A DNA stretch of 63,999 nt, filler included, from Diploschistes diacapsis (lineage: Eukaryota): the NCBI GenBank assembly GCA_023645945.1. It is 4 parts of 4 records of this genome, joined end to end, with 100 filler letters (N's around TTAATTAATTAA, not from the genome) between each part and the next. Parts side by side here need not be neighbours in the genome. Positions count along the whole stretch, not along the records: positions 48,247 to 63,999 come from JALAIB010000536.1; 3 more parts are not named here. One strand, given 5' to 3'. Shown piece after piece: positions 10,101 to 59,533 of this stretch; the stretch's first letter is position 1, and each line of letters begins with the position of its first letter. Below the pieces are notes generated by a model. That model had not been told where the DNA came from, did no database searches, and saw only the letters and a list, made by a program, of their open reading frames with translations. The translations under genes and the position numbers were made by a program.

Positions 10101-11613
10101 GAGCCAACGAGGAGAAGACTTCCGCCGGGTTGAGCGCGTGGTTGGTCAAGTCGTAGGTGATAAAAGAGAGCATCGAGGCAAAGATGGGCAACGACATTGA
10201 AACAGCTAGAATCGCATTCCTCATGGAGAGAACGATCTGAATGGCGGACACTTCTCGCTTCCTGATCTCGTTGATGCGGTGCAGGAAACTGCTTTCCCAT
10301 CCAAAGAATTTAACGAATCGAACCGATTGTAGTACTTCCGAAGTTAAGGATACGCGCTGGTCGGTGATTTTGCTGATTGCTCGTCTTCGGAGCAAGAGCT
10401 TTTTGATAGCCTTCGTGAGGAGAGGCATGCCGATGACAAGCAACGCGAACCCGGCCAGAGCTGAGTACGTCAGATTAATCAAGAGCACGACGAGCGTGAT
10501 GATAGCGGAAAATGGAGCCGTCCAAATCAAGTGAAACATGCCACTTGCTTCGTAAATCCGATACGTATCGGTAGACATCATGTTGACAATGCGGCCATTA
10601 GGATAACCAACTCGGTCTGCTGCCGGTCCTGAACCACGCTGACCGCTGGCTTTTGCATTCGTCGCCAACAGCTTTTCGATCAAGTTTTGCTTAACTCTCT
10701 TGAGATCTTCTTTCCTCCTCTCGTCTTCAGCTTCTTGTTCAGGGCTCTTCCCCCCTGCTCTTGCACGGCCTGAGACTTTCAGAGCCTTTTCGAAGATGAT
10801 GGTGATCAGGACGGCTCGGATCTGAGCTCCCACCATGAAGCCTCGATAGATGAAATGGGAAGTGCCGATGCTTTGGAGGATCTGCATGACCAACACCCCA
10901 AACACTAGGCCCAAACCAGTTCCAAGCCCCGGCCCTTGGCCGGCGTATGCTTCTTCGGCAAAGCTGATGAGGTACCTCAGAGTGAACGGGGAGAGAACTT
11001 GAAAGATGGACGACATGAGGGAGCACAGACCCCCTAGAATGAATTCCCATCTGACCATATCGTAGCAGGCGAAAATAAGCGGATACTTGTCCCCACGAGC
11101 ACGGCGCATCTCAAAGGACTCCTTCATCCTCTCAGCCAGCACGTCCGTACCCCTATCCGGATTTACGAGGTAAATATCGTTCATCTCCAAGGGTCTGCGG
11201 TACCCAGTTGTCATGAGCGGTCCCATCCAGTAGAAAGTGAGGACGCTCCAGAATCCGGCATAATACTCTGGAGAGACTGTACGCTCTGTCGGCACCTGAG
11301 GGTCTTTGCCCCATTTCAAAGGATTCAAACGTTTGTACCATGGCTTTCTGGACTTCTCTAAGGTGCTTAAGGGGGCGTCCGTTGAGAGCGCGGACAGGCC
11401 CGTGGATGTAGTAAGCGTCCGGTGTACATTCGGTCTACTCTGTTTATCATCTGAGGCATGGTCGGATGCTTTCTCAGGATCCAGCTCGTCGGACAACGAG
11501 GCCGACCCGGAAGACGCATACTCCAAGGGCTGTGTCGGGAACTGCTTGGCTGCATCGTCGAGAGCCCTCTCGACATCCTTCTCGGATGACCGTTCGGGGT
11601 CGTTGGCAGCCAT
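7174..11613 (-). CDS. ABCC/MRP-type multidrug ABC exporter, Yor1-like, apparently intronless
   Basis: TMD-NBD-TMD-NBD layout. NBD1: GTVGSGKSS, LSGGQKQR, degenerate Walker B LMDDP. NBD2: GRTGAGKSS, YSLGQRQ, VCDEAT. Likely ATG is at MAANDPERS (11613). Confidence 0.95.
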   Translation of the reverse strand: MAANDPERSSEKDVERALDDAAKQFPTQPLEYASSGSASLSDELDPEKASDHASDDKQSRPNVHRTLTTSTGLSALSTDAPLSTLEKSRKPWYKRLNPLKWGKDPQVPTERTVSPEYYAGFWSVLTFYWMGPLMTTGYRRPLEMNDIYLVNPDRGTDVLAERMKESFEMRRARGDKYPLIFACYDMVRWEFILGGLCSLMSSIFQVLSPFTLRYLISFAEEAYAGQGPGLGTGLGLVFGVLVMQILQSIGTSHFIYRGFMVGAQIRAVLITIIFEKALKVSGRARAGGKSPEQEAEDERRKEDLKRVKQNLIEKLLATNAKASGQRGSGPAADRVGYPNGRIVNMMSTDTYRIYEASGMFHLIWTAPFSAIITLVVLLINLTYSALAGFALLVIGMPLLTKAIKKLLLRRRAISKITDQRVSLTSEVLQSVRFVKFFGWESSFLHRINEIRKREVSAIQIVLSMRNAILAVSMSLPIFASMLSFITYDLTNHALNPAEVFSSLALFNSLRMPLNLLPMVIGQITDAWAAMGRIQDFLLAEEQQDQITWDMESERAIVISNATFTWEESSATQAPETGKGEKRPDGKDQQGPKRDSRRWSKRLSMWNKRSSDSTMVAEATAKTTMRGASEKPQQTEPFRLRGIELSVARDELIAVIGTVGSGKSSLLAALAGDMRMTEGSVTMGASRAFCPQYAWIQNTTVKENILFGQKWDRERYNQVVDACALRADLEMLPAGDLTEIGERGITLSGGQKQRLNIARAIYHNSDLVLMDDPLSAVDAHVGRHIFDKAICGVLKGKCRVLATHQLHVLSRCDRIVVLDDGVIRTIDTFENLMANDGLFQTMMSQTAQEEKEEEKEKVEEDGDEREAEKTDIRRKKKAKKAAALMTQEERTVNSVSWSVYGAYLRASGTLFNGPFVILFLILSQCANIATSLWLSYWTSGTFGLSTGLYIGVYAALGVLQSVLMFTFSVSVAIGGTKASRIMLRDAMRRVLRAPMSFFDTTPLGRIINRFSKDVDIMDNSLTDAIRMFTLTIAMIVAVFALIIVYFHYFAIALGPLLVVFVFSANYYRASAREVKRIEAIKRSFVFARFSEGISGVASIRAYGLANHFIQDMRNVTDDMNSAYYLTFSNQRWLSLRLDAIGNLLVFVTGLLVVTSRFDVSPSISGLVLSYILSIVQMMQFSVRQLSEVENAMNSTERIYYYGTALEEEAPLHMAPVPEKWPERGQIDFNDAQMRYRENLPLVLQGFDMHVAGGERIGIVGRTGAGKSSIMSTLFRLTELSNGSITIDGIDIAKIGLEDLRSRLAIIPQDPTLFKGTIRSNLDPFNQHNDTELWSALRQADLVGQEAKMEDGAATSRIHLDGLVEEEGLNYSLGQRQLMALARALVRNCQIIVCDEATSSVDMETDQKIQRTIATAFKGRTLLCIAHRLKTIIGYDRICVMDAGRIAELDEPLKLWEEGGIFRGMCERSGIRREDFDEMKY

Positions 11614-12739
11614 TATGGAGAGTAGAACAGGGCAGAAGCACGACAGAACATTAGAGAAAAAAGGGCAGGCAAAAGAAAATAAAGGACTGCAGAAAATGAA
11701 TGCATAACGTATATTCCGTCTAGGATTAGTCACTTGTGCATGCCGTCAAGACTCCAGTCCGTCTTTCTGTTGAGGGGTGGTGGCGCGCTCTTCTCGGTCT
11801 TAGCAGAGATGGAGGGGCCGAAAAGAGCGAACGGAGGACATACCGGAGCGAATGCAGCGTGATTGGCCAGCCATGATCCCCCGTTCAGGGATTCGAAGTT
11901 TCAACAATTACTCTGTAGTTTTGCCATGACTCAAAGAACTTTCCATATGGATGTGTGCAACGTTGTGGCTTTTCATCCTTTATCATCGCTGAAGGTAGGT
12001 CCGTTTTCAGAGTTGAGTTGCGGAAAAAGGTAAGCGAAAGCCTTTAACCAAAGAGGACCCCTTGAGGAGTGCTTCAGGCATCTTTTGCTACTAAAGGATT
12101 GTGGCCTTCTTTGCAGAAACCTCAACACGTCAGACAGAGGGTTGCCTGTTTGAAAGCGACAGCAGCCTGCCAGCATCTTCTTCAGGGTTACGAGACCTAA
12201 CGGTGAGGAGGAACGCGGTTCATTCCCCATGCACGAAGCAACAAGCAACAACGGTCAGCTTCACGCCGCCAAGCCTGAAGAGAGCCTCATGGTAAGAGTT
12301 TTTCACCTATCACCTATCACCGCATGCTGTTATAGCCGAGCTGTTATAGCCGAGCACGGACATAAGAGGCTTGTCTTGCGCGCAACGGCTGAGTCATCTC
12401 TTGTTACGGGAGCCGAACATCCATCCGGATCCGAGTATCATCCCAACACATATCAGTATCCCTATTATATTTTATATTTTGTATGCATATGAAGATTCAG
12501 CCCCTTTATTTTTGCGCACTGTTCTAATAAGTTTTGAAGCCCTTGGAGTGGGTGTAAATAAGCAAGCGGTCCTTTATGAACTGCTTCTGCAGATGGCAAT
12601 GACCCAGGCATCAAATTCTAATTCCCTATCACATTCATGTTTCGTCACTTTCCTCTTTGGGTAGGAATGATCGCTCCATGCGGAAAAGGTACTATGTACA
12701 GACAGTACAGTGCGCGCGCTTTCAATTCGCCTCCTTTCA

Positions 12740-14574
<1,835 letters not shown>

Positions 14575-15999: not shown

Positions 16000-16099
16000 N
16001 NNNNNNNNNNNNNNNNNNNNNNNNNNNNNNNNNNNNNNNNNNNTTAATTAATTAANNNNNNNNNNNNNNNNNNNNNNNNNNNNNNNNNNNNNNNNNNNN
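16000..16099. other. Artificial contig spacer (44 N + TTAATTAATTAA + 44 N)
   Basis: Identical 100-bp structure at three places; the 12-mer puts stop codons in all six frames. Confidence 0.97.
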
Positions 16100-19224: not shown

Positions 19225-20398
19225 TTATTCGCCAAGAACCTCCTTCTCGGAGACGTTCCATTTCGTATCAGCGGCAGCGGTGCTGGCCCTGAATACCACT
19301 CTCGCGGACAGTTGCACTTTCCTTGAGTCCGGGTCGAGCGCCTGGTAGAACAGCACAATGCGGGTGTACGATCCGGTGTCAGGGGCAAGACACCCAGCGA
19401 TGGCACTTCTGGGTGCTACGTCGACGTCGTGGAAGAAAAATTCAGGCAGCTGGAGGCCTTGAGTCGGGTCGATACGAATCACCTTCACTTGGCCAGAGTG
19501 TGACTTGTAGATGAGATGCAGCTGGTATCCGTTGTCCACGGCCGTAAGACTTGTGTGGGGCGAGAAAGACACCGGCTTGTTGTCGCGATCGTAACCTGAC
19601 AGTGGCAGCGGTTCTGTGGTATACAAAGTCAGGAGCAAACCTTGAACGAAAATAGGATATTCATACCTGCTGTGCCCTGTCCACTACCCACGGCGTTGTT
19701 GTCCAATTGAAGGTAGTAAATTGGCTGTCCTTTATTCTTCGAGTCCTCATTACCACGGCCGAGTATGCCTGCGCGAGGAGCCACTGCAGTGAGGGAGGTG
19801 CCGTATAGCGGCGGGTCTTTGAGATTGGCGGCGCCAAGTTGCCAAACCCGATGGAGGCCGGCAAAGCTAACCATCTTAACGGCTCCATCGCTGGTGGGAG
19901 CTTGATAGAAGACGCATATGTGGTTTACACTCGAGCCCTTGATAGTAACAGCCGCTATAGACGAGTAATGAGCGCATTGAACCTTAAGCCCAGCCAAAGT
20001 TCCATGTTTGTAGTCGCCATCCCCGTTGTCGTACTGGTCATGAAGGATGTTGTTGTCGTCGAGATAGAAGACGTACTTATGATTCATGAGCTTGATGGAT
20101 GGCGGAAGATGTCGTGGGCACTTACCTTCTCACTCATAGGCTTGTCAAGGTTATCAGTGAATGATACAGCACCAATGGGTGTGAATAGCTTCGGAGCATC
20201 AGACTTGGGATTTTTCCCTCGCAGGCGTTCAATGATGACGTTGGACTTCTTCCTTAAGCCTCGGAACTCCTTCGTCTGATCGTCCAGGTTGCCAACGAAC
20301 TGGTAGATATCGCCCTCATAGGTCTGCGCATACGCATAGACATAACTCCCCTTCACCATTGTGGTGATACTGGAGTCTGGAAGAAGCTTGACAGACAT
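19225..20398 (-). CDS. Fungal fucose-specific-lectin-like beta-propeller protein, 2 introns
   Basis: Repeated blade-like units: TPIGAVS…YVFYLDDNNILHD, SSIAAVT…ICVFYQAP, GTSLTAVA…IYYLQLDN, TSLTAVD…LHLIYKS, SAIAGC…IVLFYQA. No signal peptide. Confidence 0.6.
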
Positions 20399-27386: not shown

Positions 27387-28630
27387 TCAAATCTTCGCCT
27401 GAAACTCCCTCTCCTCGACCATCCCCCCTTTGCTCTTCGCGACATCTCTTCCTTCAATAATCGCTCGACTTTTCCTTCGTTCCCACTTTAGCGCTGTCCA
27501 TACAGTCTCTTCTCCATCCCCTTCTTCCTTCTTTTCCCCCCCACCATCCACCAACGATTCCATTCTTGCCGTATACTCGGGCCTCATCAAAAATGCAATA
27601 CTGAAGCGCATCTCCTGCGCTTGCGGGCCGGGCGCCCAGGTGACGCGGTGCAGGTCGCTGCGCAGCAGGCCGCCGCTCCACTCTGTCATGGCATCGCCCA
27701 TGTTGACGAGGACGTGGCCCTGTTCTGGCCGGATGTAGTGCCATGCGTCGTCGCCGGGCCCTTCAGCTGTCGAGGCCCAGGGCGTGGACAACGACGGCGG
27801 GAGCGACACCTGCAGGCCACCGAGGACGGCGAAAAGCAGGGTGATACTGCCGATATCGGTGTGACCGAGGAGCGCGGTGCGTCGGTCGCTCGGCGGGTGC
27901 GGTGGGTAGCGGAGGAGGCGGATGGTGGTGCCGGATTGGAGGGCGGGATCGTGTAGGGAGGAAAGGGTGGAAGAGGGAAGGGAGAGCGAGGCGGAGAGCG
28001 AGGCGAATAGATGGGCGGCAACGGCGCGGCACTTGAGGGTGAAAGAGCGAAGAAGGGGGCGATGTGAGGTGACGAGGGAGGGGTTCGGGAAGGGAGAGAT
28101 AAGGCCGAGGAGGTCATCCTGCGCAAAGGTGAAGGCTTCGTAGCGGTCCGGCTGGCCGGACTCGACTTTGTTGCGGCCGACGTGCTTGTAGCTGTATGAA
28201 GCACGATGGCGGACAGTGTTAAGCCCAAGCCAGATGCAACGGAAGGAGGGAGAATAGGTGCTAGGCTCAAAGGGGCAACGAAAGCGGGGAAGAAGAGACA
28301 CCGTCTATCAAACACTAGGCAAATCTAGACATACCCAAAAAGCTGCTCCGGCGGCTCATATGGATAACGCATCTTCTCGTGGAGGGGAAGGTCATGCAGC
28401 GCCCGGTTCAGAAGGAGCGCTTTCTCTGCATCCTGGAGCAGCGCTTTGCCCTCGGGCGCGTCTCGCAAGTCGAGGTGCAGGAAGCCAAAAGTGCGGCAGG
28501 CTTCAAAGAGTAAGGCATGCTCGCCAGGGTCTCCGGCCAGCAGGCGGGCCAGTGACAAGCGCGGAATGGAGGCCGTGCGGACGTCCGAGGGGAAAGGCGG
28601 CAGTCCCGAGAACAAGACGGGCGTGGGCAT
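27387..28630 (-). CDS. 2-oxoglutarate/Fe(II)-dependent dioxygenase (IPNS/DIOX family), 1 intron (~28192-28334)
   Basis: DIOX_N region (PPFPSDV…LFEACRTFGFLHLDL), facial triad GHTDIG…DLHRV, and RFS 2OG-binding motif. Confidence 0.92.
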
Positions 28631-29332
28631 GGTAGAGATAGAGAGAGTCAGTCCAACGGAACCAACTCGCACGGTTTCAGAGATTGAGGGACGGAACGGG
28701 AAGACTGGACTTGGCAAAGAGAGGTATCTAGATACTATAAGAGAAACCCATACTGTATACGAAGTATGACCAGACTCCTTCTTTCCCCCTCCTCCTCTCC
28801 TCTCCTCTGTCTGCTATCTACTACATACTGGATACTGCTTTTGCTGTACAGTAAAATCGACGATTCAGCGACAGCGCCACCTGCGTCATGATGCTGGTTC
28901 GCGCATCTGCCAGCAACAGCTAGTATCGAACCAGCTTGGTGACAACAACTCTCAGAGCTTCCTGCAATCTCAAAGAAAAGCAGAAAAGCTACCCCGTCAA
29001 GCCTCGTGGCGGCCGCATCCCGCACCTCGTGGCATCTCCCGTCATCCTGTGATTTACTTTGATTTACTTTGTTGGCCTTGTTCGATGTCGAAGGGACAGT
29101 AGCTGGGATGTCAGGCTCGATACGGTGCAATGCGATGCGAAGCGATGAAGCGATGCGATGCTATGCTCCTAGACCCAGCACAGAATAAAGTACAATTTCT
29201 TCTTCTACTTGCTCTTCTTCTCCTTCCTCCTCTTCTTCTTCTTCTTCTTCCCCTTCTTCCTCTTTCCCGAAGCCTTTTGATTGCTTTCACTCCCAACACC
29301 CAGCCAAGTGATTTCAGCGAACCGAAGGCAGG

Positions 29333-31698
<2,366 letters not shown>

Positions 31699-32091: not shown

Positions 32092-32191
32092 NNNNNNNNN
32101 NNNNNNNNNNNNNNNNNNNNNNNNNNNNNNNNNNNTTAATTAATTAANNNNNNNNNNNNNNNNNNNNNNNNNNNNNNNNNNNNNNNNNNNN
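32092..32191. other. Artificial contig spacer (44 N + TTAATTAATTAA + 44 N)
   Basis: Same structure as 16000-16099. Confidence 0.97.
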
Positions 32192-43170: not shown

Positions 43171-45900
43171 TTACAAGCTCATAGTGAGCCATTCCCATTC
43201 TTGAGTCCCGGCGGCAGCTCCCGCACCAAGAGCATGATTACAGTTGCTGATAATGCCGGTGCCCTGAAGACCCGCATGGCGGAAGTCAGGTTGTGCAACG
43301 ACACTGGTAGATTCGGAGCCCTTCCTTCCATGTGTAGTCGCGCGTGAGCTCTGGCCGTTGGTGTCCTCAGCATCTGCCATTTCGGATTCTTGGGAAACGC
43401 CAGGGTTGGGTTTGGATTGTCTTCGTTGACGCTTAGGTGCGACAGCGATCGTCGAGCGGGTGGGCGCGGTGCCGGCAAGATTGGTGCTTGAAGCCTTTGG
43501 TGGTGCCGCAGCTATTGGAATGTTTCCTGTCTTCGAGGTTCCCGAGCTATAGTTCGTAGGCGTGCTTCCAGCGGTTGAGTTCTCGTTGGTCGAACCTTGC
43601 ACAGAGCCGGGAGACTCGGATTCATTTGCAGGCTTGCAGGATGGTGGAGTGGGAGCAGTTGCAACCGTCTGGCCTGTAGAGTTCTTGCGGGCAGCGGACT
43701 TCTTGCCCGAGCGCGTATTTGTAGTAGTTGGTACCGACGTACCACTGCCCCGATTCCTTTTCTTGATAACGTCCGTTTTTAAAGATAGGGGTCTGACGAC
43801 GCCGTGGAGCTTCAGAAAGAGTCCGCAGGCATTACACAGTGGCTGACCCTCAGGATTCCTGCGCCAGAGTGGAGTAGTCTGCGTAGAGCAGTTCGTACAG
43901 GTCGTTGAGACACTCCCGTCTCCGTTCCTGGAGCCAGCAGGACTACTCGGTCGTGAAGGGACAACGCTGCTTAGCCCAGACTCTGCTGGAGAGTTTGGTG
44001 ACGGCTGAGACCCTGAGACGCCGGAAGCTTGTTGAGCAAGGTTCAGGGTGTTGGGGGTTGAAGCCGTGCGTGGTATTTTCTGTTGGCGGGGGTCCGTGCT
44101 TCGATTTCGCACGTCGCTTACCGAAACAGAGGAACCATGCCTCCGATCCATTCCGCCTGACTGGCTCCAGTTTGGAGGCGAATGGACTGTATCAGTGCTG
44201 CCAATTGTCACCTGCTTTCGCAGCCCTCCCTGGCCGTACCTCACGCCCATGTTGTTGAATTGCCCTGTCAAACCAGTATCCCATTGCATACTGTTTGGAT
44301 CAACCGTGAGATCTTTCACGCTTTGGTAATCCGACCGCATGATTATGCCCTGATCGGCGAGGGAGACAAGGTCCTCATCTTCGTTATCCGAGTCTCCACC
44401 AAACGTAAACATCTGATCCGTTCGCGTAGCTGGCAATGGTGTGGTCTGAGAATTGGTGAAAGCAGGGTTCAAGACTCGAGATGGGTCTATATGCTGCTGA
44501 TTCGCAAATGATCGAGATTCGTAGCTTACCATGGGTGCGCTGGTCACGGCGTTGAACATTGAGCCTTCATTCGGATTGAAACTGTAGTTTGATTGGACAA
44601 CACTCGACTGATTTGAAGGACGGTTGACCGGGTAAGGTGCACTTCTGTGATGCCTCATATCGATGGGTTTGCTACGATCAAAATACATCTCATCCATGGT
44701 CTGGGCAGGCTGCGGTGTGGATGCATTCGAAGGGTAGGCAGACCCCGGGAGAGAATAGTAATCAGTGCCGCTCATTGACGGGCCAAAGGACGAATTATGG
44801 TACTGAGAGAATGGGCCGTGATTGACCAGTGGCGAGCCTGTTGGGGAGAAGCTGAAATTCGATTGGAAAGGTCCCGCAGAGTGTAGGATGGGATCGTCTT
44901 GTTGATTGTAAGAGCCAATATTGTATGGCAAAGTTGGGTGCGAAGTGCTATGGTTGGGAAAGCCGTTGCTGAGCGTCGCCCCGGAGTAATCAAGACTATA
45001 ATTGTTGAGACTTGTCTCTGCATCTGGCTCATTGGGTATCGAAATACTACCGACGGCAGGAACTTGAGGCGAGGATTCTGCAGGACGCTTTCGAGTCTAA
45101 TCGATATCAGCCAAGCCCTGGGGGAAGCAGCGTCAGGTAAACGTACCCTTCCTTCGTCTACACTCGTTTTTCTGATGTGTCTCTGCACATAGCCGAATTC
45201 CCTTTGCCGACTTCTCTCAAGGTTGATGCCTGGCGCGGACGCAAGAAATGGATGCTGTGGCTCTTGCGACTTTCTCGCTTTGATCGGAATGGAGGTTGGG
45301 ACAGCAGGATGGCCGGGGGTAAAGAAAGGAACAGGGGCTGGGGAAGGTGATGCCTCTGAGGGCGTAGCAATCGAGGTCGGGAATATAAGATCGTCAAGAT
45401 TCATCGCATCTAATTGATGGGTCTCAGGGGAGGCAGCAGCTGACTGTCGCAACTGCGCGATGCCAGAAGGCGCTGGGCTGGGTGTCTGAGACGTCGGTCC
45501 TGCTGAATGACAACTGCTAGGGAATCAGTTTCCGCTGCTGTACTCGAGGCAAGCCCAATCGTACCGCGCCGAATCTTCGCGTTCCTTTCGCTTTAGATTC
45601 ATGGCCATCATCCTCCATGTCAGGTTTTCCACGCGCTCCTGGTTTGGGAGTGACTTCTTTGTCCTGCTGTAAAGTCGCCATATCTGCATGGAGAGGGGAT
45701 CCTTCTCCTGCATCTTGTCGGGATCGTCGAGGTCGTCGCCGGTGGCATCATCTCTCCAGGTGGGGAATATTGCTTCGTGAAGAACCCCCTCACGAACCAC
45801 GTCGTTCTCGCCCAGTGAATCCAGTTTGACAACCTTTTGCGTGAAGAACACAAAGGTCGGTGGTCTAGACGAGTCTACAAAAAGAGGGCCTGAGGGTGGT
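43171..45900 (-). CDS. areA: Nitrogen regulatory GATA factor AreA/NIT2; 5' end uncertain
   Basis: GATA finger [34 protein letters not shown]-terminal [10 protein letters not shown]-terminal [26 protein letters not shown], and [16 protein letters not shown]. Start codon not identified. Confidence 0.93.
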
Positions 45901-46356
45901 GAAGGACCGCAGGCCGGGAAGACTGTGGGGAAGAGGCACAAAAATAATGCATCACCGCAGCTACTACGGCACAAAGCAGCTGACGAGGGGGGGAATGGGA
46001 ATGGGAATGAAGACTAATCGAGCAAAACTCGCCGTTCGAAGACGAAGAGTCAGAGTTCGTGTCTTGGTCTTGGGGGAGGCATAATGGGGTTCACGGCTTT
46101 GAGGAGCGAGGGGGAGTTCCCCCCCACGCGATTTCTGCGCCTTTAGTTGCTAGCTCCTTCCCACCAATTATGGGGGTACAAGCGGATAAAGTCGCCTCTT
46201 CAAAAACTGCTGAGATCGACTACATAAAGGGATCCTCCTTGTGCCTTTGTAGCCTCTATGCCCGGGCATGACTTTCAAGAAATACTACCTCCGGAAGTAG
46301 GTTCAAAGAGCTGTTGGGAGAAACTTCAAGGGGGCAAATGCGTGGTGCGCAAATTG

Positions 46357-48146: not shown

Positions 48147-48246
48147 NNNNNNNNNNNNNNNNNNNNNNNNNNNNNNNNNNNNNNNNNNNNTTAATTAATT
48201 AANNNNNNNNNNNNNNNNNNNNNNNNNNNNNNNNNNNNNNNNNNNN
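48147..48246. other. Artificial contig spacer (44 N + TTAATTAATTAA + 44 N)
   Basis: Same structure as the other two spacers. Confidence 0.97.
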
Positions 48247-49946: not shown

Positions 49947-51369
49947 TTAGCCACGTCTTGAGTCCGATTGCAGGATCTCTGAAGACACCATGATTCCTTT
50001 CTGGCTCAAGCCTGTTCGTGATGTTGATGTACCAGCCAGTGGCTGACTGCCGACGTGAACGTCACAAGTACCGTGTGTATCATAGAAATTCGCTCCCACG
50101 TTTGTGTCGAAGTTTCCTTTCATATTACTGCCTAGAGAGAATTGATTCGGAGTACGACCATCAGTACTGCTGCTCAGTTTAATGCCCTTCGTAAAGCATA
50201 AAGATAGAAAGCCCTGTACTCTGTCCACGAAGCCTCCCATGGACTGCCGCGCGAAAAGTGGACGAAACATCGGGAGACAGGCACAGACTGTACCAAGCGA
50301 GGTCTCGATAAAAGACCAGTACATCGTGGGGGCAGCATAGTCTGGACTTCTGTGAGTTGGTATGATTGTGAGCGAAGGCATTGGGGCTTACAAGTGATGT
50401 CCGAAAGTGGTGCTTTTCCCATTTCGAAAAAGAACGCTGTTCTAGTGATACCGGTTCCAATGACTCTATCGAGGGATCCAGGTTAATACTATGTGCAGGA
50501 ATCTAGAACGATGAAGATGCGGGGAAATACTTACATAGCGCCTGAAAGAAAGACCAAAATTACTTCAGCTTTCTGCCTGGTCGCCATCTGTAGCTTCAGT
50601 ACCGCCGGAATGGGCATAGCCAGAACCAGCGTGTCCGTAAGTACGTCCGAAATGGCGTATGCTTCCCATAATATTATTTTGTTCACGCTCGTCGCGGATG
50701 GAATTGTAGGGTCCCATACGGCGGCAATTGGCGTAGATTGGAAGACGAATGCAAAGAAAAAGGCTCCGTGCCAAACCAGTACGATGGTGCTCACGATCCA
50801 GGATGCACGCTTGAATGAAGCATTGACGAAGATCCGACGGTAGAGAAGAATCAAGGATAGTTTCGCGCAGACAATAGCCAATTGCGCCAAGATTTCAAAC
50901 GCATATTCAACCTAGAATAGAACAGAAGTAGAACAGTTAGCTGATTAACTATCGGAGAAGCTGGGGGAACGATATCATACTTGAGAGAAACGGACTAACT
51001 GGTCCAATTGGTCTGGAATTTCTGGGCTCTTGGTGTATGTTAGGTGCTGCCCCAAGTTCCCCGTGAGCGCCGCTATGAAGTATCAGAACATGATGAGAAT
51101 GAGAAAAATCCCAAGAAGCGCGACAGACCAATTACTTGGCATACTCCGGTCCCAATGGTGAACAGCTTTATATCCGTCAGGTGAAGACTTCTTAGCTATA
51201 TCTGGCATCGACTTGGGCATACCAGAGCTGGCAGGATCATATAATCGTCGGACGCTAGCCTTGCCTTTTTTATGGCCTTGGCCCAGAAGCGAAAAGCAAC
51301 GGCAACGATGGGCAGAAGCATGAAAACAGCAGCCAGGGCCACAATGTAAAGACTCTGGCTTTCAGCCAT
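49947..51369 (-). CDS. PTH11-like (fungal rhodopsin-domain) integral membrane protein, multi-intron
   Basis: VAVAFRFWAK…LASDDYMILPAL, AKLSLILLYRRIF, SDVLTDTLVLAMPIPAVLKLQM…QKAEVILVFLSG, and WSFIETSLGTVCACLPMFRPLF. No CFEM domain seen. Confidence 0.88.
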
Positions 51370-51956: not shown

Positions 51957-53041
51957 ATGGCATCGAACAGTGGATCATACCCGTTGTCCCGCGGATACAA
52001 AGCCTCTGCAAGGTTCGATCTGATGGAGAATCTTTTCATGCAGATTCAGTCTAATCTACCGCAGGCTGAACTTGCAGCATTTCCTCCACGTCAAAGATAC
52101 TGGATATATTCTACACCCCGCGGTTTCATTGCCTTCCGAAAGCGTAAGGGTTGCCGACATTGGTACCGGAACTGGGTATTCCGCCCCAAACTCGTTTGTA
52201 GTTCAAGCAGCTGATGCTCAACAGCATTTGGCTCATTGATCTGCAAAGCCATCTTCCAAGTTCTGCATTGCTGGATGGATTCGATGTCAGCTCCCTTCAG
52301 TTTCCGCCGAAGGAGTGGCTCCCGCCGAACGTTTCTTTAAAGCTGTTGAACATCCTTGAAGAAGTTCCTGAGCATCTTCACGGCAAGTATGATGTGGTGA
52401 ACATTAGGTATTTTTGTTGCGTGGTAAAGGATAACGACCCCGGGCTGGTTATCAAGAACGTTCTGAAGATGCTGAGTATATCAAGATCTTCACTATATTA
52501 TCCTCAAGTTTCCGAGATATGTATTTCATTCGTTGAAAATTGAAGATGAGCTATGTGCAATTACTGACCATGATTTTAGAGCCTGGAGGTTATTTACAGT
52601 GGTCCGAGCAAGACTATACCTCGCAACAGGTTGTGACGGCGAGTCCAGATATCACGAAAAGCCCATTTGTTTCCTTGAAGGATGAGCTTGAAGCACGAAG
52701 CAAAACCACGGTTGGGAGATTCAAGTAAGCAGCTCCCAAAGTCCCACTATTGCAACCCTAGGATTTCTCTTGACTTGAGTAATAGCTGGATATCCAAACT
52801 CGATCAATCCTTTGATGATTACGGATTGATCGATGCTTTTGTCGCTCGCAGTCCGGAAAAGACCGAGTTCTACTCATTCTGGCAACACACATACATGATG
52901 GTCTTGGAGGAGATGAGCTATAGCGTGAACGAGGGAGACACCGTGAGAGATTTGCTCCAAAAGACGCAAACGCAGACTCCAGAAGGAGTATTCTGGCGCA
53001 GGGGCCACCTTACCTTCGTTGGGAAGAAGCCCAGTGTTTGA
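51957..53041 (+). CDS. Class I SAM-dependent methyltransferase (GliN/SirN-like secondary-metabolism type), 4 introns
   Basis: YPLSRGYKASAR|LNLQH…GYILHP…RVADIGTGTG|IWL…LDGFDVS…YDVVNIR…PGGYLQWSE. Confidence 0.88.
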
Positions 53042-53335
53042 CAGGCCCTTGCTGTACCGCTGACTCAAGCGAGCCGATAGAACTGCAAGAGCAGTGGTCG
53101 ATTGAATGGGATACTGGACCAAAAAAGAGGCGTGCTTTTTACAATGGATATAGTCCTATAGATCCCATCATGTTACCATTGTAATTTTGGTATGATTGCT
53201 GCTATTGATTTTCTCCTGAAGCGGTGCCTCGAATAGGAATATATTTAGATTGCTGTATACTAGCCAATGTCAAGCGCTTGGCCTCCCATGGCTTGAGGTC
53301 TCCGACATCTTGTGGTTCTGGTCGATATGGACCAT

Positions 53336-53669
53336 TCAGGCTTTGTGGTCCTCCACAGGCCATGCTGCATACGCAGCTTCATCCTGATCAACTCGTTTGT
53401 GAACAGACCGTTTGTGATCCTCTACCGGCCATGCCGCGTACGCAGCTTCGTCCTGGTCAACCCGCTTTCGGATGGACCTCTTGTGGTCCTCTACCGGCCA
53501 TGCCGCGTATGCCGCTTCGTCCTGGTCGACTCTCTCATGGACCTCTATGCTCTGTTGGCCGACCGATACATATATCTAGTTGGCACAGGGGCTTACCACG
53601 GCCCGTTATGACGGGTGCTGCCAACAAGCCTCCCATGAAGAGTGGGAGAAGGTAGATGGTGGACCGCAT
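53336..53669 (-). CDS. Kex2-processed repeat protein; putative dikaritin RiPP precursor (93 aa; exons 53669-53597 and 53544-53336)
   Basis: Manual translation: MRSTIYLLPLFMGGLLAAPVITGR|EVHER-VDQDEAAYAAWPVEDH-KRSIRKR-VDQDEAAYAAWPVEDH-KRSVHKR-VDQDEAAYAAWPVEDH-KA*. It has a signal peptide, a 52-nt GTAAGC…TAG intron, a 69-nt repeat period and flanking DUF3328 genes. Confidence 0.9.
53342..53530 (-). repeat. Three 69-bp-period coding tandem repeats of the precursor
   Basis: Matching anchors on the + strand at 53344, 53413 and 53482. Confidence 0.95.
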
Positions 53670-54283
53670 ATCTGATAAAGGCTTGCGTTTCGAAGGGCAC
53701 CACCGTTGAAGCTCAGAATACTAGTAGGTGAAAGCTGGGGTCAAATTCTCCGAGGGACCTCTCCAAAACGGCCTGATGTGAAATACAATGTAGCTCTCGA
53801 GACCCAAACCTGAGATGCATAACTCATGCCAGGCAGGCTCTTATCAGGAGAATCAAGGACATAGCAGCAGAATGTTGCGCCGCCGCCGTGGCTCGGCTGC
53901 AGCTCGTTCTGGGCATGATAACAAGCTTGAGAAGGATGGAAACCATTGGGTATTGATGGCTTGCAGGTCGGAACTGCAGGAAGCAGACAGTGAGGGGGAA
54001 AAAAGCAGATTCTTGCAGTAAGTCGCAGGGGCACCAGAGCTCAGTTTGGTAAAAAGTTGCGAGATGCTACTTCCCGTGCCTCGAAAGAACCATCCTGCCT
54101 CAATTGCAGACTTGATACGTTGCATGATACATGCGTTAAATGTATGCCCATGCAGAAGGATTCCCCATGACCCTTCGCTTCCGGCTCGGTCGAGCGGGTA
54201 CATACATAACGGTGAATTGCGCAACAAAACAGGCTCAGAAGTATAATAATATCTTATAAGCGAAGGTATAGTGGAAAGCAACT

Positions 54284-54326
54284 TGAAGAAGAAGAAGAAG
54301 AAGAAGATGATGATGATGATGATGAC
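54284..54326. repeat. (GAA)n(GAT)n compound microsatellite in the precursor/DUF3328 divergent intergenic region
   Basis: Read directly from the sequence. Confidence 0.85.
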
Positions 54327-54786
54327 AAACTGTAAGAGGTTTGCATTCACACTTTGAGAATGAGATCGTAAATGCCCTCGTCTTTTCATAGTGTTAAATG
54401 GGCTGTGTGTGTGTGTTTGAATGTGCATGAGCTCGAATGATGATCTCTACCCGCCGGCGCGATAATAGCATTTCCACTTGCCTCTTTTCAGTTAGGAGTC
54501 TGTGCTGCTACCCTTGCCGGACACAGTGGGCGCAGAGAAAAAAAAGATAACAGGGGGAAAGTTAAAAGCTCGGAGGCTTTGCGATACAAGTGTTTGCTTT
54601 GTACATGATCAAGTTTGCCTGGTCTTTGCCTTCATACGTTGATGCAGGGATCTTCTATTTAGTCGTACCAACGCATGTGATGGATGGCAGCTGTGTCTCC
54701 ATGCTAATCTTAGAGAGAAGAAGAGTAGCCACCGCTATCCTCGCCATCACACAAAGTTATTCTCATTCCTGCCCAGAGCAATTGCA

Positions 54787-55628
54787 ATGTACCTCGACTG
54801 TTTGACCCCAAGGTCCATCCGCTATTCTGCTATTCTGGGCACGAGCAGGTTCGACGGAGGCTTCCGTACTGAGCAAAAGCAGAAAACCCGCTGGTATCTA
54901 ATACCGACAGTGCTTGCTTTGATGATTGCATCCGGCAGTGTTGGCTACATCTTCGGTAGTTCTTCACATTCCGATCATGATTCCGGGCTGCTTGGTATGA
55001 CTTCTCCTGTCCTCCAGGTTCTGATTTGCTCCTAAGACTTCTTCTCATAAGCCCCTGCTGGGACGGTCGAGAAGCAATTTACGTACAACCGTACGTTTTC
55101 AGTGGCGCCCACAAGCGAGACGATCGAAGCTTGGAAAGGGTTATTTCCAGGTATGCGTCTTGGCCAGAGGAAACTAGTCGGATCGGATCAAAATAATGGA
55201 AAGAAACGAAGCAGATAATGGAGGATTCATTCATCACCCTGTGCTGGCCACCAATTTCTCGGGAATCGCCGTGTTTCATCAACTTCATTGCCTGGTGAGC
55301 CGAGATGTGCCTCCTTTATTCCACTTGTTGACTATTGGATCAAAAGCATGCTCTATATGACCTTTATTACGGTTCGATGGAGCAAGAATTGCAGAGGACT
55401 CGAGAGCGGCATTCTAAACATTTAGATCCTTCAGTCCACGCGCGTCATTGCTTCGATTACCTACGGCAGTCTCTGATGTGTCAAGCGGATACTAACCTCG
55501 AGCCGTACGATTATCATCTGGACGGTGTGACGGGATGGGTGCAGAGGAACTGCCGCGATTACGACGCAGTAGTCACCTTTGCCAATGCTTGGGGTGGTAG
55601 CAAGTATGCAAACAAGCAGGACAAGTAA
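54787..55628 (+). CDS. DUF3328 / UstYa-family oxidase (copy 1), 3 introns
   Basis: N-terminal TM helix, FTYNRTFS…EAWKGLFP|DNGGFIHHP, twin HxxHC motifs AVFHQLHCL and HARHCFDYLRQSLMCQADTNLEP, and GW…CRDYD. Confidence 0.93.
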
Positions 55629-55761: not shown

Positions 55762-56854
55762 TCAGAGCACCATGCTCGGTACCGGGGTGCTAAGTAGGGT
55801 CGACCCCAACGGCAGTTCGAGCAAGTCCGGGTCAAATAAATTAACCGTGCGTTTTGCAGTCCATTCTCTCAATCGTCCCCAGTTCACACATTGATGGTAA
55901 GTTCTTGTCTTGACGAAGGGATACAACAAGCCCTCTTCAGTCCTGGCAAAATAGAATGGTGTGAGGGAAATATCGCCACTGCACATCGTGGCAAGCCGTA
56001 GCACCTCCAAACAATGATCTAAGAGAATTGGCTTATGTCTCCAAGGCGGTTCGGGAACGCTCACCAACGTGCATTCTTTGGGCCTTTAGTTCCAGCTCTG
56101 TCGCATTCGGAAAGTAGTGCTCGTGGGAGAGATAGTGTCGAATTTGTTTCTGTAAGTGAGTAGTGAGACAGAGCCTTGGAGTAACAGGCGGGTAGGGTAA
56201 CAAGTATTACCAGACAATGTAACTGGTGTGTAGATGCCAACTGAGCGACATATCCCTAAATCACGCTCTATTAGGTACAAAACCCAAGCTGTAAGGCTTT
56301 TCAAAGACGACCAACCGTTCCGTTCTTAAAGATCAATGAGGTATAGTTGGCGGCTTCCAATTCCTCTTTAGATACACGGATGTGAGAATCTGGGCTTGCA
56401 ATATCAGCCAGCGAATAGAAACCTCCAAGGCAAAGGGTGATAATCATGATACATCTCAAGAGCTCATGCCAGGCTTTGTCGAATTCTGGACGCGGATCCC
56501 CAGTGAAAGGGTTGTCGTAGGTCCGTGGATAGAATGTCTGCTGTTGGTATTCAACGGCAATAGTTGCTGGTGCTGGGTCTGATTAGCTACCATCGGGGTC
56601 TGCAAGAGAATAGACCTACAGGGAACTTTAAAAGAATGAGGTGTTGAGTGAACAATAAAGAAGAAAATGCAAGTATAGAGTGCAATCAGACCGATATGTA
56701 GATTAATAGGCTGACAGACAAGCCGACGAAGCTGCTGCGTAGAATGCTTGCCATCGTTGTTACCGTTCAATAGGGAAATGTCCTCCCCGCCATCAGGGCA
56801 ATGCTCTTTTGAAAGGGAATGCCGAGAATCAAAACTCATCGCGTCTGTTGTCAT
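55762..56854 (-). CDS. DUF3328 / UstYa-family oxidase (copy 2, different subfamily), ~5 introns
   Basis: TM helix, NPFTGDPRPEFDKAWHELL, HIRVSKEEL, GYVAQLASTHQLHCL|KQIRHYL, HV|DHCLEVLRLATMCSGD, and HQCVNWGRLREW. Confidence 0.92.
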
Positions 56855-57199: not shown

Positions 57200-58067
57200 T
57201 CAGTCATTCTTCGCTTCCCTCGCGATGCGCAAGACGAATTGCTTGACCTCTTCGGGCTTGGTGAGCCAAGGTATATGGCCAGTCTCTAGAGTCTTCGTCT
57301 TCTCCTCAGGGAAGCCTGCCATCTCCACCGTTTTCAGCTGATAGTCATGCTTGAAAGCTTGGTCCAGAGTGGTCAGGATATAACCGGATGGAATCTCTCT
57401 GTATGTCTCGTGTGTAAGCGGGGAATCGTAGACACTAAACACGCTTGTTAGGCGAGGAATACAAGCTAGTTTTTCAGAGCGCATCTCACCCAACAGATTG
57501 CGCTTTTAGTAACGAAGTCCAGTATCTCGCCTGGCTTTCCTCCAGATCGTTGTAGAACATGTTAGTAGCAAAATCTGGCGGCAGACCCAACAGACCGTCC
57601 TGTTGCCAGTCTTTGAGTCTTCTCTCCGTCTTGAATTGGCCGGATTAACTTACTTGGGTGAAAGCTTGCCGCGCCGGCTTCCAAGTCAGGTCACCAACAG
57701 CCCCCAGGTGGTCATCGAAACAGTTACCCTTTCTGGGCACCATTGAAGCGATATATATCAAAGCTATGACGCCCGCACCACTTGTCGAGCTTTTCCCCAG
57801 CCCGTGCAGCGCTTCGGATCCCGCAATCCCTCCAAGTGAGTGCAAGACGGCGATGATGTCTTTTTTCTCCTCAACTAGCCGGTTAGCTACATTGCCCACT
57901 GCAGCAACATCGCCAGAAAAATCTGTTGCTGGTGGATGGGCGCCGACGCTAGGAAGGCCAATGGCCTCCGTGGGGTATCCTGCATTCTCGAAGACTTTTG
58001 CAAGGGGCTCAAGATAGTCAACTGTATGCCACGCTCCACCAACAATAAGAACTGTTGGTTTCTCCAT
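57200..58067 (-). CDS. Alpha/beta hydrolase (Abhydrolase_6 / methylesterase-like), 2 introns
   Basis: KPTVLIVGGAWH, nucleophile elbow HSLGG, acid in TLDQA, and His in TGHIPW. Confidence 0.9.
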
Positions 58068-58525: not shown

Positions 58526-59533
58526 CTAGGAACGTGAGCGGCTTGCAAGAATCAGCACGATTGGCCAGGTGTACAGCCTCGTTGCCTTTTCCCCTCCCAT
58601 TCCCACCTTCAGCTGTTCAAAGAGTTGCCTCATCTCTGCGTCTGCTTCCACTGCCGAGTCCACTCCTGGGAAGCTAGAATTCACGTATTTTCTTACCCCA
58701 TGGATATTCCAGCCGGCCTTCCAGAACCCAGCATCTTCTTTTTCAACAACCTTCTCGGTCATCCTAACTCGATTCGTTAGCTCAACAACAAAGTCGACGG
58801 CTTCTGGCCCAAACCCCATCTTTGCACTCTTCGCGTTCCACTTTATTCGCTGCACCAGGTCCCAATGTCCGTCAGAGAGATCCACATTGTCCAGCCAGCT
58901 TGCCATTCCCTCTGCTGCTCTTTTCCATGTAGCTCTGTTCTCCGTGTCTCCGCCCTTGATCACCTTGCCGAAGGTCAAGTTTAATATTCGGTCGAACAGT
59001 GGCTGGCATCGTGCCTTGTACTCAAGCTCCGAAAAGTGAGGTCTTCCATAGAACCATATCGCTAAAGTACCATTGGGTTTGAGCACGCGCGCAAAACTCG
59101 ACAATGCAGCAGCTGAATCCAGGAGAGGAAAGCACTGTGCTGCAGTGATGAGGTTGGCGGACTCTGGCGGACAGTGGCGACTTAGATTCTCCGCTGTGCA
59201 TTGTACATATTGAATATGGTTTGAGGATAGTACCTGACATTTCCGCAGAGCGTCAAGGGAGGAGATATTACTGTCGCTTGCTATAACACGCCCGAAGCGC
59301 TTGGATATCTCGATTGCGGCTTTACCGGAGCCGCAAGCGACATCATGAGCGATCCCAAACAACGTCGAATCTTGAAGCTTGCAGGAGTGATATTCGTAAA
59401 TAATCCTGAGGAAGTCAGAGTCAGCGTAATTAGGACGCACAGCTTCATATTCTCTCCAGTAATCCTCTTCTGAGCCCGAATCGACCTTCCAAAGACCCGA
59501 GCCGGCAGAGGAAGAAGCTTTCGCCGTCGTCAT
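58526..59533 (-). CDS. SAM-dependent methyltransferase (Methyltransf_11, Crg1/Tmt1-like), intronless
   Basis: YEAVRPNY, AHDVACGSG motif I, RVIASD, ANLITAAQCF, and VLKPNGTLAIWFYG. Confidence 0.9.
   Translation of the reverse strand: MTTAKASSSAGSGLWKVDSGSEEDYWREYEAVRPNYADSDFLRIIYEYHSCKLQDSTLFGIAHDVACGSGKAAIEISKRFGRVIASDSNISSLDALRKCQVLSSNHIQYVQCTAENLSRHCPPESANLITAAQCFPLLDSAAALSSFARVLKPNGTLAIWFYGRPHFSELEYKARCQPLFDRILNLTFGKVIKGGDTENRATWKRAAEGMASWLDNVDLSDGHWDLVQRIKWNAKSAKMGFGPEAVDFVVELTNRVRMTEKVVEKEDAGFWKAGWNIHGVRKYVNSSFPGVDSAVEADAEMRQLFEQLKVGMGGEKATRLYTWPIVLILASRSRS

What the first reader, a model, noticed from the sequence alone, without database searches (positions are those of the whole stretch)
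53336..53669. Hidden spliced precursor with three identical VDQDEAAYAAWPVEDH units and only synonymous variation
The ORF track shows only antisense shadow ORFs here. On the minus strand, a 24-aa signal exon splices to three 23-aa-period repeats. Across the 17 codons VDQ…DHK, 11 codon positions differ among copies and every difference is synonymous, while the spacer changes (SIR vs SVH). That is direct evidence of purifying selection on the peptide sequence. Inference: Kex2/Kex1 release the 16-mer, the acidic flanks (VDQDE, VED) act as leader and follower, and the core lies within AAYAAWP. Tyr and Trp at i and i+3 are candidates for a DUF3328-made aryl or ether cross-link.
Basis: partly seen in the sequence, partly recalled or inferred. 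Interest (0 to 1): 0.9.

Follow-up and report, generated by a model that had tools for sequence, protein, structure and literature searches.

The report
Lichen-fungus multi-copy RiPP precursor gene
A small two-exon gene in a lichen-type fungus encodes a secretion signal followed by three identical copies of a short Tyr/Trp peptide and lies next to two copper-oxidase genes of the ustiloxin (UstYa) family, so it is most likely the missing precursor of a new, still uncharacterised fungal cyclic peptide of a known class.

Summary
On the minus strand, exon 1 (53669-53597), a 52-nt intron and exon 2 (53544-53336) give a 93-aa protein. It has a hydrophobic N-terminus and three identical VDQDEAAYAAWPVEDHK units separated by RSIRKR/RSVHKR. 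The copies differ at 11 nucleotides, all at third codon positions and all synonymous (chance about 1e-8 to 1e-7). No other frame tolerates these differences.

The repeat frame has no Met of its own, so splicing is needed. Three database proteins carry two or three copies of DQDEAAYQAWPVEDH; the only named one is from the lichen fungus Icmadophila ericetorum. That protein also shares the signal-like N-terminus.

Two UstYa/DUF3328 genes, each with both HxxHC motifs, lie 1.1 and 2.1 kb away. The first is transcribed divergently from the precursor.

The best reading is a Kex2-processed multi-core precursor of a dikaritin-type RiPP in a Lecanoromycete. The core boundaries, the Tyr-Trp cross-link, splicing and expression remain untested: no RNA run was listed and no relatives' DNA could be fetched. 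It is a new member of a known kind. It is moderately interesting because a 2025 survey of lichen UstY clusters found no repeated precursor.

The parts
53336..53669 (-). Precursor gene: ATG to TGA, 2 exons, 93 aa
53597..53669 (-). Exon 1: signal-like N-terminus MRSTIYLLPLFMGGLLAAPVITGR plus the first base of the next codon
   Evidence: 9-residue Kyte-Doolittle means are 1.4-2.1 over residues 3-23. 10 of 20 identities with the N-terminus of P0003. No signal-peptide predictor was available.
53545..53596 (-). Predicted 52-nt intron, GTAAGC...CATAG, phase 1
   Evidence: Of the acceptors tested, only this one keeps the frame, has a YAG acceptor and retains all three units with the EVHER junction. 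No transcript evidence.
53336..53544 (-). Exon 2: (E)VHER, three units, two spacers, A, stop
   Evidence: The stop-to-stop frame 53575-53339 has no Met before the repeats.
53480..53530 (-). Unit 1: VDQDEAAYAAWPVEDHK
53411..53461 (-). Unit 2: VDQDEAAYAAWPVEDHK
53342..53392 (-). Unit 3: VDQDEAAYAAWPVEDHK
53670..54786 (.). Intergenic region between the divergently oriented precursor and UstYa-1; putative shared promoter
   Evidence: The arrangement is. Co-regulation is inferred.
54787..55628 (+). UstYa/DUF3328 gene 1. Four exons read by eye from the sequence (54787-54994, 55052-55150, 55215-55294, 55347-55628; 669 nt, 222 aa). Has a TM-like stretch, HQLHC and HARHC.
   Evidence: PF11807 at 55.6 bits (cut-off 25) on 55332-55625. 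Sequence and frames. tblastn with P0010 finds both motifs. The exon joins are my reading and were not checked against transcripts.
55762..56854 (-). UstYa/DUF3328 gene 2, about 5 introns, about 269 aa. Has HQLHC, and HVDHC formed across an intron. The 5' exon structure is unresolved.
   Evidence: PF11807 at 46.3 and 26.1 bits. Frames, tblastn. Splice-chain enumeration gave 11,732 chains; the three 3' introns are shared by the 8 best chains.
57200..58067 (-). Alpha/beta-hydrolase gene; possible cluster member (uncertain)
   Evidence: Abhydrolase_6 at 31.3 bits. Frames.
58526..59533 (-). SAM methyltransferase gene (Methyltransf_11/25); possible cluster member (uncertain)
   Evidence: (45.6 bits).
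52024..53041 (+). Gene with a methyltransferase-like ADIGTGTG stretch, convergent with the precursor; family not assigned
   Evidence: Frames. No Pfam hit at E <= 0.5 and no PDB hit. The motif reading is recalled, not tested.

Best explanation
This is the precursor gene of a UstYa-type (dikaritin-like, ustiloxin-type) fungal RiPP in a lichen-forming Lecanoromycete.

Proposed mechanism:
1. The transcript, made divergently from UstYa-1, loses a 52-nt intron.
2. The 93-aa product enters the ER through its N-terminal signal.
3. In the secretory pathway the two neighbouring membrane-anchored, binuclear-copper DUF3328 oxidases modify each of the three identical units. They recognise the conserved acidic 15-mer DQDEAAY(A/Q)AWPVEDH. 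The most likely reaction is oxidation or cross-linking at the Tyr side chain within Y-x-A-W-P.
4. Kex2 cuts after the KR pairs and a Kex1-type carboxypeptidase removes K/R.
5. Other peptidases may trim the acidic ends, and a nearby methyltransferase may add a methyl group.

Shown here: the gene, the selection on the peptide and on the KR codons, conservation in other lichen-type sequences, and adjacency to two UstYa genes with intact motifs. Inferred: splicing, secretion, the order of steps, the chemistry and the final product.
For: (1) Purifying selection on this reading frame only. 11 of 11 inter-copy differences are synonymous third-position changes (P about 1e-8 to 1e-7), and K, R and S codons in the spacer also differ synonymously.

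(2) Relatives. P0003 (named Icmadophila ericetorum), P0004 and P0005 carry 3, 3 and 2 copies of DQD(E/D)AAYQAWP(V/A)EDH. P0003 joins the same signal-like N-terminus to the repeats in one predicted protein.

(3) The repeat frame has no start codon. Only splicing to exon 1 supplies a start and a hydrophobic N-terminus.

(4) Two PF11807 genes lie 1.1 kb and 2.1 kb from the precursor's start codon. Both carry both HxxHC motifs and a TM-like segment.

(5) Literature read here:
- Dikaritins come from signal-bearing multi-core proteins processed by Kex2 and cyclised by UstYa/UstYb homologues (PMC9233826, passages).
- 22% of 7,878 KEPs have DUF3328 genes nearby, peaking at the adjacent gene, and Tyr is enriched in their repeats: 65.6% against 38.2% (PMC7329392, section 7).
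- DUF3328 proteins are membrane-anchored, O2-dependent binuclear copper enzymes that use HxxHC(x)nHxxHC (PMC12435403, passages).

(6) The AreA-type ORF in the window has its best named hits in Lecanoromycetes, at 54-56% identity.
Against: There is no transcript evidence for the gene or the intron, and no RNA run could be listed. No signal-peptide predictor was available; hydropathy and homology are proxies.

The first junction is ER rather than a dibasic site. Relatives place KR at other distances, and one spacer lacks it.

No tyrosinase domain was found in 0 of 261 ORF translations (>= 75 or 85 aa) scanned across the window. Tyrosinase is needed for ustiloxin and phomopsin cyclisation.

DUF3328 genes also occur in non-RiPP clusters. 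Whether relatives' precursors also sit beside UstYa genes could not be checked, because no DNA of relatives could be fetched.

The family is tiny in protein databases: 3 true relatives in the word-indexed search and only one related representative among 1.84 billion.
Confidence: 0.7

Rival explanations
1. It is a secreted Kex2-processed repeat protein whose peptides stay linear and unmodified, as a signal-, pheromone- or metal-binding-type acidic peptide. The UstYa neighbours would serve another substrate.
For: 78% of KEPs have no DUF3328 partner, and many are linear pheromones (PMC7329392, abstract and section 7). DUF3328 enzymes also act in NRPS and polyketide pathways. The whole 15-mer is conserved, not just a short core.
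Against: Two UstYa genes lie within 2.1 kb, one of them divergent from the precursor. No NRPS or PKS domain was seen among the 127 ORFs scanned from 41 to 64 kb. Tyr-containing repeats are enriched in DUF3328-linked KEPs.
Confidence: 0.17
2. It is a decaying or silent relic: the gene was once a precursor but is no longer spliced or expressed in this fungus.
For: There is no expression evidence. The first site is ER, not KR. There are only three copies.
Against: The copies have diverged 10-20% at the DNA level without a single residue change. That requires selection over the time since duplication. The ORF, the donor and acceptor sites and both UstYa genes are intact.
Confidence: 0.08
3. It is not a gene on this strand: either a non-coding 69-nt tandem repeat, or the plus-strand ORFs (94-148 aa) are the real gene.
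For: The plus-strand ORFs are longer than any unspliced minus-strand ORF.
Against: In the plus frames, 10 of 11 or 10 of 10 variable codons change residue, or stop codons appear. The plus ORFs have no Pfam hit. Protein relatives match the minus-strand frame.
Confidence: 0.02

Closest known systems
Ustiloxin system (precursor UstA with UstYa/UstYb; Aspergillus flavus, Ustilaginoidea virens)
   Same: A signal-bearing protein with repeated units between KR sites. A pair of DUF3328 genes sits beside it. Tyr lies in the repeated motif, and the residue after Tyr varies. Sources: PMC7329392 abstract and section 7; PMC9233826 passages. The YAIG/YVIG cores are recalled, not read here.
   Different: Only 3 copies. 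The motif contains Trp and no Ile. No tyrosinase, P450 or flavin monooxygenase lies nearby. There is no sequence similarity between the precursors: only one related representative was found in the profile search.
Asperipin-2a system (one DUF3328 cyclase, AprY)
   Same: A compact cluster without a tyrosinase. An aromatic-rich core is cross-linked through Tyr side chains by a DUF3328 enzyme (PMC9233826 passages; PMC7329392 section 7). AprY is reported as copper- and O2-dependent (cited in PMC12435403).
   Different: Two UstYa genes here rather than one. The core is different, with one Tyr and one Trp. The product is unknown.
Kex2-processed repeat proteins (KEPs), including yeast alpha-factor
   Same: The architecture is a signal followed by at least 3 tandem units of at least 8 aa delimited by dibasic sites (criteria in PMC7329392 section 13).
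   Different: The first unit is preceded by ER and the last ends at the C-terminus. The motif is absent from the 3 KEP supplement files held.
UstY-containing RiPP clusters of lichens (clans R1 and R2 in Parmeliaceae; Pasinato and Singh 2025, PMC12048977)
   Same: A Lecanoromycete host, DUF3328 signature genes with a double HXXHC, and a methyltransferase nearby.
   Different: Those authors found no repeated precursor in their clans (sections 15 and 22). Here the repeated precursor is explicit. No tyrosinase (R1) or GNAT genes (R2) were seen here. Whether this locus belongs to either clan was not tested.
Plant burpitides (BURP-domain copper cyclases)
   Same: This is an analogy only. Copper enzymes cross-link Tyr or Trp side chains in repeated core peptides, guided by recognition sequences (PMC12186524, search listing and abstract start only; comparison in PMC12435403).
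   Different: An unrelated protein family, and the cores are often fused to the cyclase. Not a membership candidate.

Membership tests
Kex2-processed repeat protein (KEP; Umemura 2020 criteria) | N-terminal ER signal peptide (SignalP) | tested here: inconclusive
   The profile is positive-hydrophobic-polar (MRS + 15 hydrophobic residues). KD means are 1.4-2.1. The N-terminus is conserved with P0003. No SignalP was available.
Kex2-processed repeat protein (KEP; Umemura 2020 criteria) | >= 3 tandem repeats of >= 8 aa between KR/KK/RK/RR sites, each <= 100 aa | tested here: met
   Three identical 17-aa units. Caveat: unit 1 is preceded by ER, and unit 3 is bounded by the C-terminus rather than a dibasic site.
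Dikaritin / UstYa-type RiPP cluster | DUF3328 (PF11807) protein gene(s) in the cluster, with two HxxHC motifs | tested here: met
   Two genes. PF11807 scores of 55.6, 46.3 and 26.1 bits against a cut-off of 25. HQLHC + HARHC and HQLHC + HVDHC.
Dikaritin / UstYa-type RiPP cluster | Precursor with a leader and repeated core/recognition motifs, close to the DUF3328 genes | tested here: met
   The precursor's start codon is 1.1 kb from the start of UstYa-1 and 2.1 kb from the near end of UstYa-2.
Dikaritin BGC in the older five-gene definition (as quoted in PMC12048977 section 23) | Tyrosinase gene | tested here: not met
   0 tyrosinase hits in 261 ORF translations across the window. ORFs under 75 or 85 aa, or containing N, were not scanned. 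The definition was later relaxed.
Dikaritin BGC in the older five-gene definition | Methyltransferase; transporter or peptidase | tested here: inconclusive
   Methyltransf_11 gene at 58526-59533 and an alpha/beta hydrolase at 57200-58067. No dedicated peptidase or transporter domain lies within 10 kb. Whether they belong to the cluster is unknown.
Dikaritin / UstYa-type RiPP | Side-chain macrocyclised peptide product that depends on the DUF3328 enzymes | not testable with these tools
   This needs LC-MS and genetics.
Ustiloxin precursor (UstA) homologue | Sequence similarity to known precursors | tested here: not met
   The profile search over 1.84 billion representatives found one related cluster (P0004) and four unrelated repeat proteins. 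The motif was found in 0 papers.

The most novel reading that the evidence does not exclude
This would be the first explicit precursor of a lichen-fungal RiPP. Its product would be a new chemotype: a tyrosinase-independent pair of copper DUF3328 enzymes joining Tyr to Trp (or to the Trp beta-carbon, or to Pro/Val) within Y-x-A-W-P. Alternatively, the whole acidic His-ending 15-mer could be kept as a modified peptide. Either would extend DUF3328 chemistry beyond the aromatic-to-aliphatic ether links known so far. It would also give a search motif for the 'missing' precursors in Lecanoromycete UstY clusters.
Probability: 0.2. Interest if true: 0.7.

Novelty: new member of a known kind. Interest (0 to 1): 0.5.

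Why it matters
According to the 2025 survey I read (PMC12048977, section 23), no RiPP has been characterised from a Lecanoromycete. [quoted passage not shown]

This locus shows that at least some lichen-type fungi have a classical multi-core precursor next to UstYa genes. It also shows why such genes are missed: the gene is short and split by an intron, and longer antisense ORFs hide it.

The conserved 15-mer gives a concrete motif for mining other lichen genomes, and defined masses for peptidomics. The Tyr/Trp motif with two DUF3328 genes and no tyrosinase is a compact test case for the newly recognised copper chemistry of this enzyme family.

Tried and rejected
- Whole-genome search: no genome is held for this window.
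- RNA evidence: no RNA holder was listed for 53230-53760, so read laying could not be used.
- JGI metagenome scans: with the precursor alignment, 163 pattern matches and 0 confirmed. With UstYa-1 exon 4, 60 pattern matches and 0 confirmed.
- Profile search of 1.84 billion representatives: besides P0004, the four hits P0006-P0009 are unrelated repeat proteins on inspection.
- 'Longer' homologue search with UstYa-1 exon 4: a single hit, P0010 (Hypoxylon sp., 52% identity over 60% of the query).
- The listing of cluster members for P0003-P0005 could not be made. The paper by Chiang et al. (JACS 2025) is not held.
- The methyltransferase-like gene 52024-53041 has no Pfam hit and no PDB hit.
- Earlier findings of this scan: nothing on this genome or sequence. 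The word search returned only bacterial and archaeal repeat-peptide notes that do not bear on this locus.
- Alternative acceptors: introns of 45, 47 and 54 nt give early stops. A 67-nt intron (GAG acceptor) is also in frame and keeps all three units. An 82-nt intron (AAG) and a 106-nt intron (TAG) are in frame but remove part or all of unit 1. The 52-nt TAG acceptor was preferred as the first in-frame YAG that keeps all three units.
- Considered and rejected: a larger cluster including the P450, ABC transporter, 2OG oxygenase and GMC oxidoreductase at 7-32 kb. A kinase gene and an AreA-type gene lie in between.

Full report
**1. Observation**

- Exon 1 begins with ATG at 53669 and encodes MRSTIYLLPLFMGGLLAAPVITGR plus one base. 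It ends at 53597.
- A 52-nt GTAAGC...CATAG interval occupies 53596-53545.
- From 53544, exon 2 reads (E)VHER, then three identical VDQDEAAYAAWPVEDHK units separated by RSIRKR and RSVHKR, then Ala and TGA.

Tandem Repeats Finder sees a 69-nt period with 2.8 copies and 82% matches. With ATG starts, the only minus-strand ORF here is the 44-aa unspliced read-through, while the plus strand shows ORFs of 94 and 97 aa. That is why the gene is 'hidden'.

**2. Is it more than chance?**

The three 51-nt units differ at 11 nucleotide columns, with pairwise differences of 5, 7 and 10 of 51. All 11 are third codon positions and all are synonymous in this frame. About 20-23% of random single substitutions in this unit would be synonymous, so the chance of 11 out of 11 is 1.6e-8 to 7.7e-8.

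In four of the other five frames, 10 of 10 or 10 of 11 variable codons change the residue. The remaining antisense frame acquires stop codons. In the six spacer codons, R, S, K and R differ only synonymously while the two middle residues change (I/V, R/H). The dibasic sites are therefore also under selection.

A six-frame scan finds no second repeat ORF and no other copy of the motif in the window.

**3. Gene model**

The stop-to-stop frame holding the repeats (53575-53339) begins IYVSVGQQSIEVHER and contains no Met before the units. A start codon must therefore come from a splice.

I joined exon 1 in silico to every AG 30-140 nt downstream of the donor.
- The CAG (45-nt) and GAG (47-nt) acceptors give products of 29 and 25 aa.
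- The TAG at 52 nt gives the 93-aa protein.
- A 67-nt variant with a poor GAG acceptor is also in frame and keeps all three units.
- The 82-nt (AAG) and 106-nt (TAG) variants are in frame but remove part or all of unit 1.

The conclusion about the peptides does not depend on the choice between the 52-nt and 67-nt introns.

The N-terminus has a charged start, a hydrophobic core of about 15 residues and a polar end. Nine-residue Kyte-Doolittle means are 1.4-2.1. No signal-peptide predictor was available. No RNA run could be listed, so splicing and expression are inferred.

**4. Relatives**

The word-indexed protein search returned 3 proteins at E <= 0.01 out of 98 candidates.
- P0003 (113 aa) is named a hypothetical protein of Icmadophila ericetorum.
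- P0004 (92 aa) and P0005 (53 aa) are unnamed.

They carry 3, 3 and 2 copies of DQD(E/D)AAYQAWP(V/A)EDH. Over the 11 copies in the four proteins, the 15-mer is invariant except at three positions:
- E/D varies in 1 of 11 copies.
- The residue after Tyr is Ala in this window's 3 copies and Gln in the other 8.
- V/A varies in 1 of 11 copies.

The spacers are not conserved. In relatives the KR lies after EDHKV or EDHVV and is followed by three extra residues before DQDE. One spacer in P0003 has no dibasic site.

P0003's N-terminus matches exon 1 with 10 of 20 identities (E 2e-7). An independent gene prediction in another species therefore also links this signal-like segment to the repeats.

A profile search of 1.84 billion cluster representatives found only P0004's cluster. 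The four other hits (P0006-P0009) are unrelated repeat proteins on inspection. Two JGI metagenome scans confirmed nothing. The DNA around the relatives could not be fetched, so conserved linkage to UstYa genes is untested.

**5. Surroundings**

I scanned 127 stop-to-stop ORFs of at least 75 aa from 41-64 kb and 134 ORFs of at least 85 aa from 0-41 kb against Pfam.

PF11807 (UstYa/DUF3328) hits at 55332-55625(+), 55765-56085(-) and 56304-56582(-), with scores of 55.6, 46.3 and 26.1 bits against a cut-off of 25.

*UstYa-1.* Reading the sequence gives a four-exon gene at 54787-55628 (222 aa). It has a TM-like stretch, HQLHC and HARHC. It is divergent from the precursor across a 1.1-kb low-complexity intergenic region.

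*UstYa-2.* This gene lies at about 56854-55762 on the minus strand and is convergent with UstYa-1. It has HQLHC, and HVDHC formed across an intron. Splice-chain enumeration fixed its three 3' introns but not its 5' structure.

Further genes nearby:
- An alpha/beta hydrolase at 57200-58067(-).
- A Methyltransf_11 gene at 58526-59533(-).
- A gene at 52024-53041(+) with a methyltransferase-like glycine-rich stretch but no Pfam or PDB hit.
- A PTH11-like 7TM gene at 49950-50911(-).

No tyrosinase domain appeared in any of the 261 ORFs.

The AreA-type ORF (43174-45096) has its best named hits in Lecanoromycetes: Lambiella at 55%, Xylographa at 56% and Lasallia at 54%. Unnamed sequences reach 72%. 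The window therefore most likely comes from a lichen-forming Lecanoromycete with no close named relative in that list.

**6. Mechanism**

From the papers read:
- Dikaritins are made from signal-bearing multi-core proteins that are cut by Kex2 and further peptidases. UstYa/UstYb homologues cyclise them through Tyr (or Phe) side chains (PMC9233826, passages).
- DUF3328 genes peak at the position next to KEP genes, and Tyr is enriched in such repeats (PMC7329392, section 7).
- DUF3328 enzymes are TM-anchored, lumenal, homodimeric, O2- and reductant-dependent binuclear copper enzymes. They use HxxHC(x)nHxxHC (PMC12435403, passages).

On this basis the most likely course is ER entry, modification of each unit by UstYa-1 and/or UstYa-2 in the secretory pathway, Kex2 cleavage after KR, removal of K/R, and possibly further trimming or methylation.

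Kex2 plus carboxypeptidase would give VDQDEAAYAAWPVEDH (M 1814.77). Because the KR positions differ in relatives, this 16-mer is unlikely to be the conserved end product.

Which residues are joined is unknown. A summary I read assigns aromatic-to-aliphatic links to DUF3328 enzymes and biaryl links to P450s (PMC12797325, passage). A Tyr-Trp biaryl would therefore be unprecedented for this family. A Tyr ether to a beta-carbon (Trp, Pro, Val or Ala) would be conventional.

The one position that differs between species (A/Q after Tyr) recalls the variable second residue of ustiloxin cores. That comparison is recalled and was not tested here.

**7. Comparison and novelty**

The locus meets the KEP repeat criterion, with the caveat of an ER first junction. 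It also meets the current DUF3328-based definition of a dikaritin-type cluster. It fails the older requirement for a tyrosinase.

It has no sequence relation to known precursors. Its motif occurs in 0 papers of the searchable library. It also occurs in 0 of 3 KEP supplement files and 0 of 4 supplement files of the lichen survey, which did include Icmadophila ericetorum. Many subscription papers are not in that library.

The 2025 lichen survey found UstY homologues with double HXXHC motifs but no repeated precursor in its two clans. It also states that no Lecanoromycete RiPP has been characterised. Only that paper and one review turned up for lichen + DUF3328 + precursor peptide.

I therefore rate this a new member of a known kind.

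**8. Verdict**

Its chemical part (core limits, Tyr-Trp link) is unproven. Confidence in the RiPP-precursor reading is about 0.7. The main rival is an unmodified secreted repeat peptide (about 0.17). Interest is 0.5: a solid, testable genome-mining lead for lichen natural products rather than a surprise in kind.

Noticed in passing
window 16000-16099, 32092-32191, 48147-48246: Three pairs of 44-base N runs at about 16-kb spacing. These are masked stretches, not assembly gaps of the usual kind.
   Followed up: no
window 7177-14574 (-): A full-length ABC transporter ORF (1523 aa, two ABC_membrane and two ABC_tran domains) lies next to a cytochrome P450 gene. It may be a separate secondary-metabolite or detoxification pair.
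   Followed up: no
window 27390-31661: A 2OG-Fe(II) oxygenase gene (minus strand) lies beside a GMC oxidoreductase gene (plus strand).
   Followed up: no
window 43174-46013 (-): An AreA-type GATA nitrogen regulator (GATA and GATA_AreA domains). Its best named relatives are Lecanoromycetes at 54-56% identity, and unnamed sequences reach 72%.
   Followed up: partly
window 49950-50911 (-): A PTH11-like 7TM membrane protein gene (Fung_rhodopsin domain, 112 bits) lies 2.4 kb from the precursor. Whether it belongs to the cluster is unknown.
   Followed up: no
window 52024-53041 (+): A multi-exon gene convergent with the precursor. It has an ADIGTGTG stretch and other methyltransferase-like segments but no Pfam hit at E <= 0.5 and no PDB hit.
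   Followed up: partly
window 53856-54446: The 197-aa minus-strand ORF in the precursor/UstYa-1 intergenic region is made of poly-I/F/S low-complexity translation from A/T and microsatellite tracts. It is probably not coding.
   Followed up: no
P0003 (Icmadophila ericetorum), residues 25-45: The annotated relative has 21 extra residues between the signal-like segment and the first unit. These may be an unrecognised in-frame intron, because the sequence after them (EVEMNKR) resembles this window's post-splice EVHER junction. This could not be checked without the DNA.
   Followed up: no
window 19632-20129 (-): An ORF with a fungal fucose-specific lectin domain (31.6 bits).
   Followed up: no
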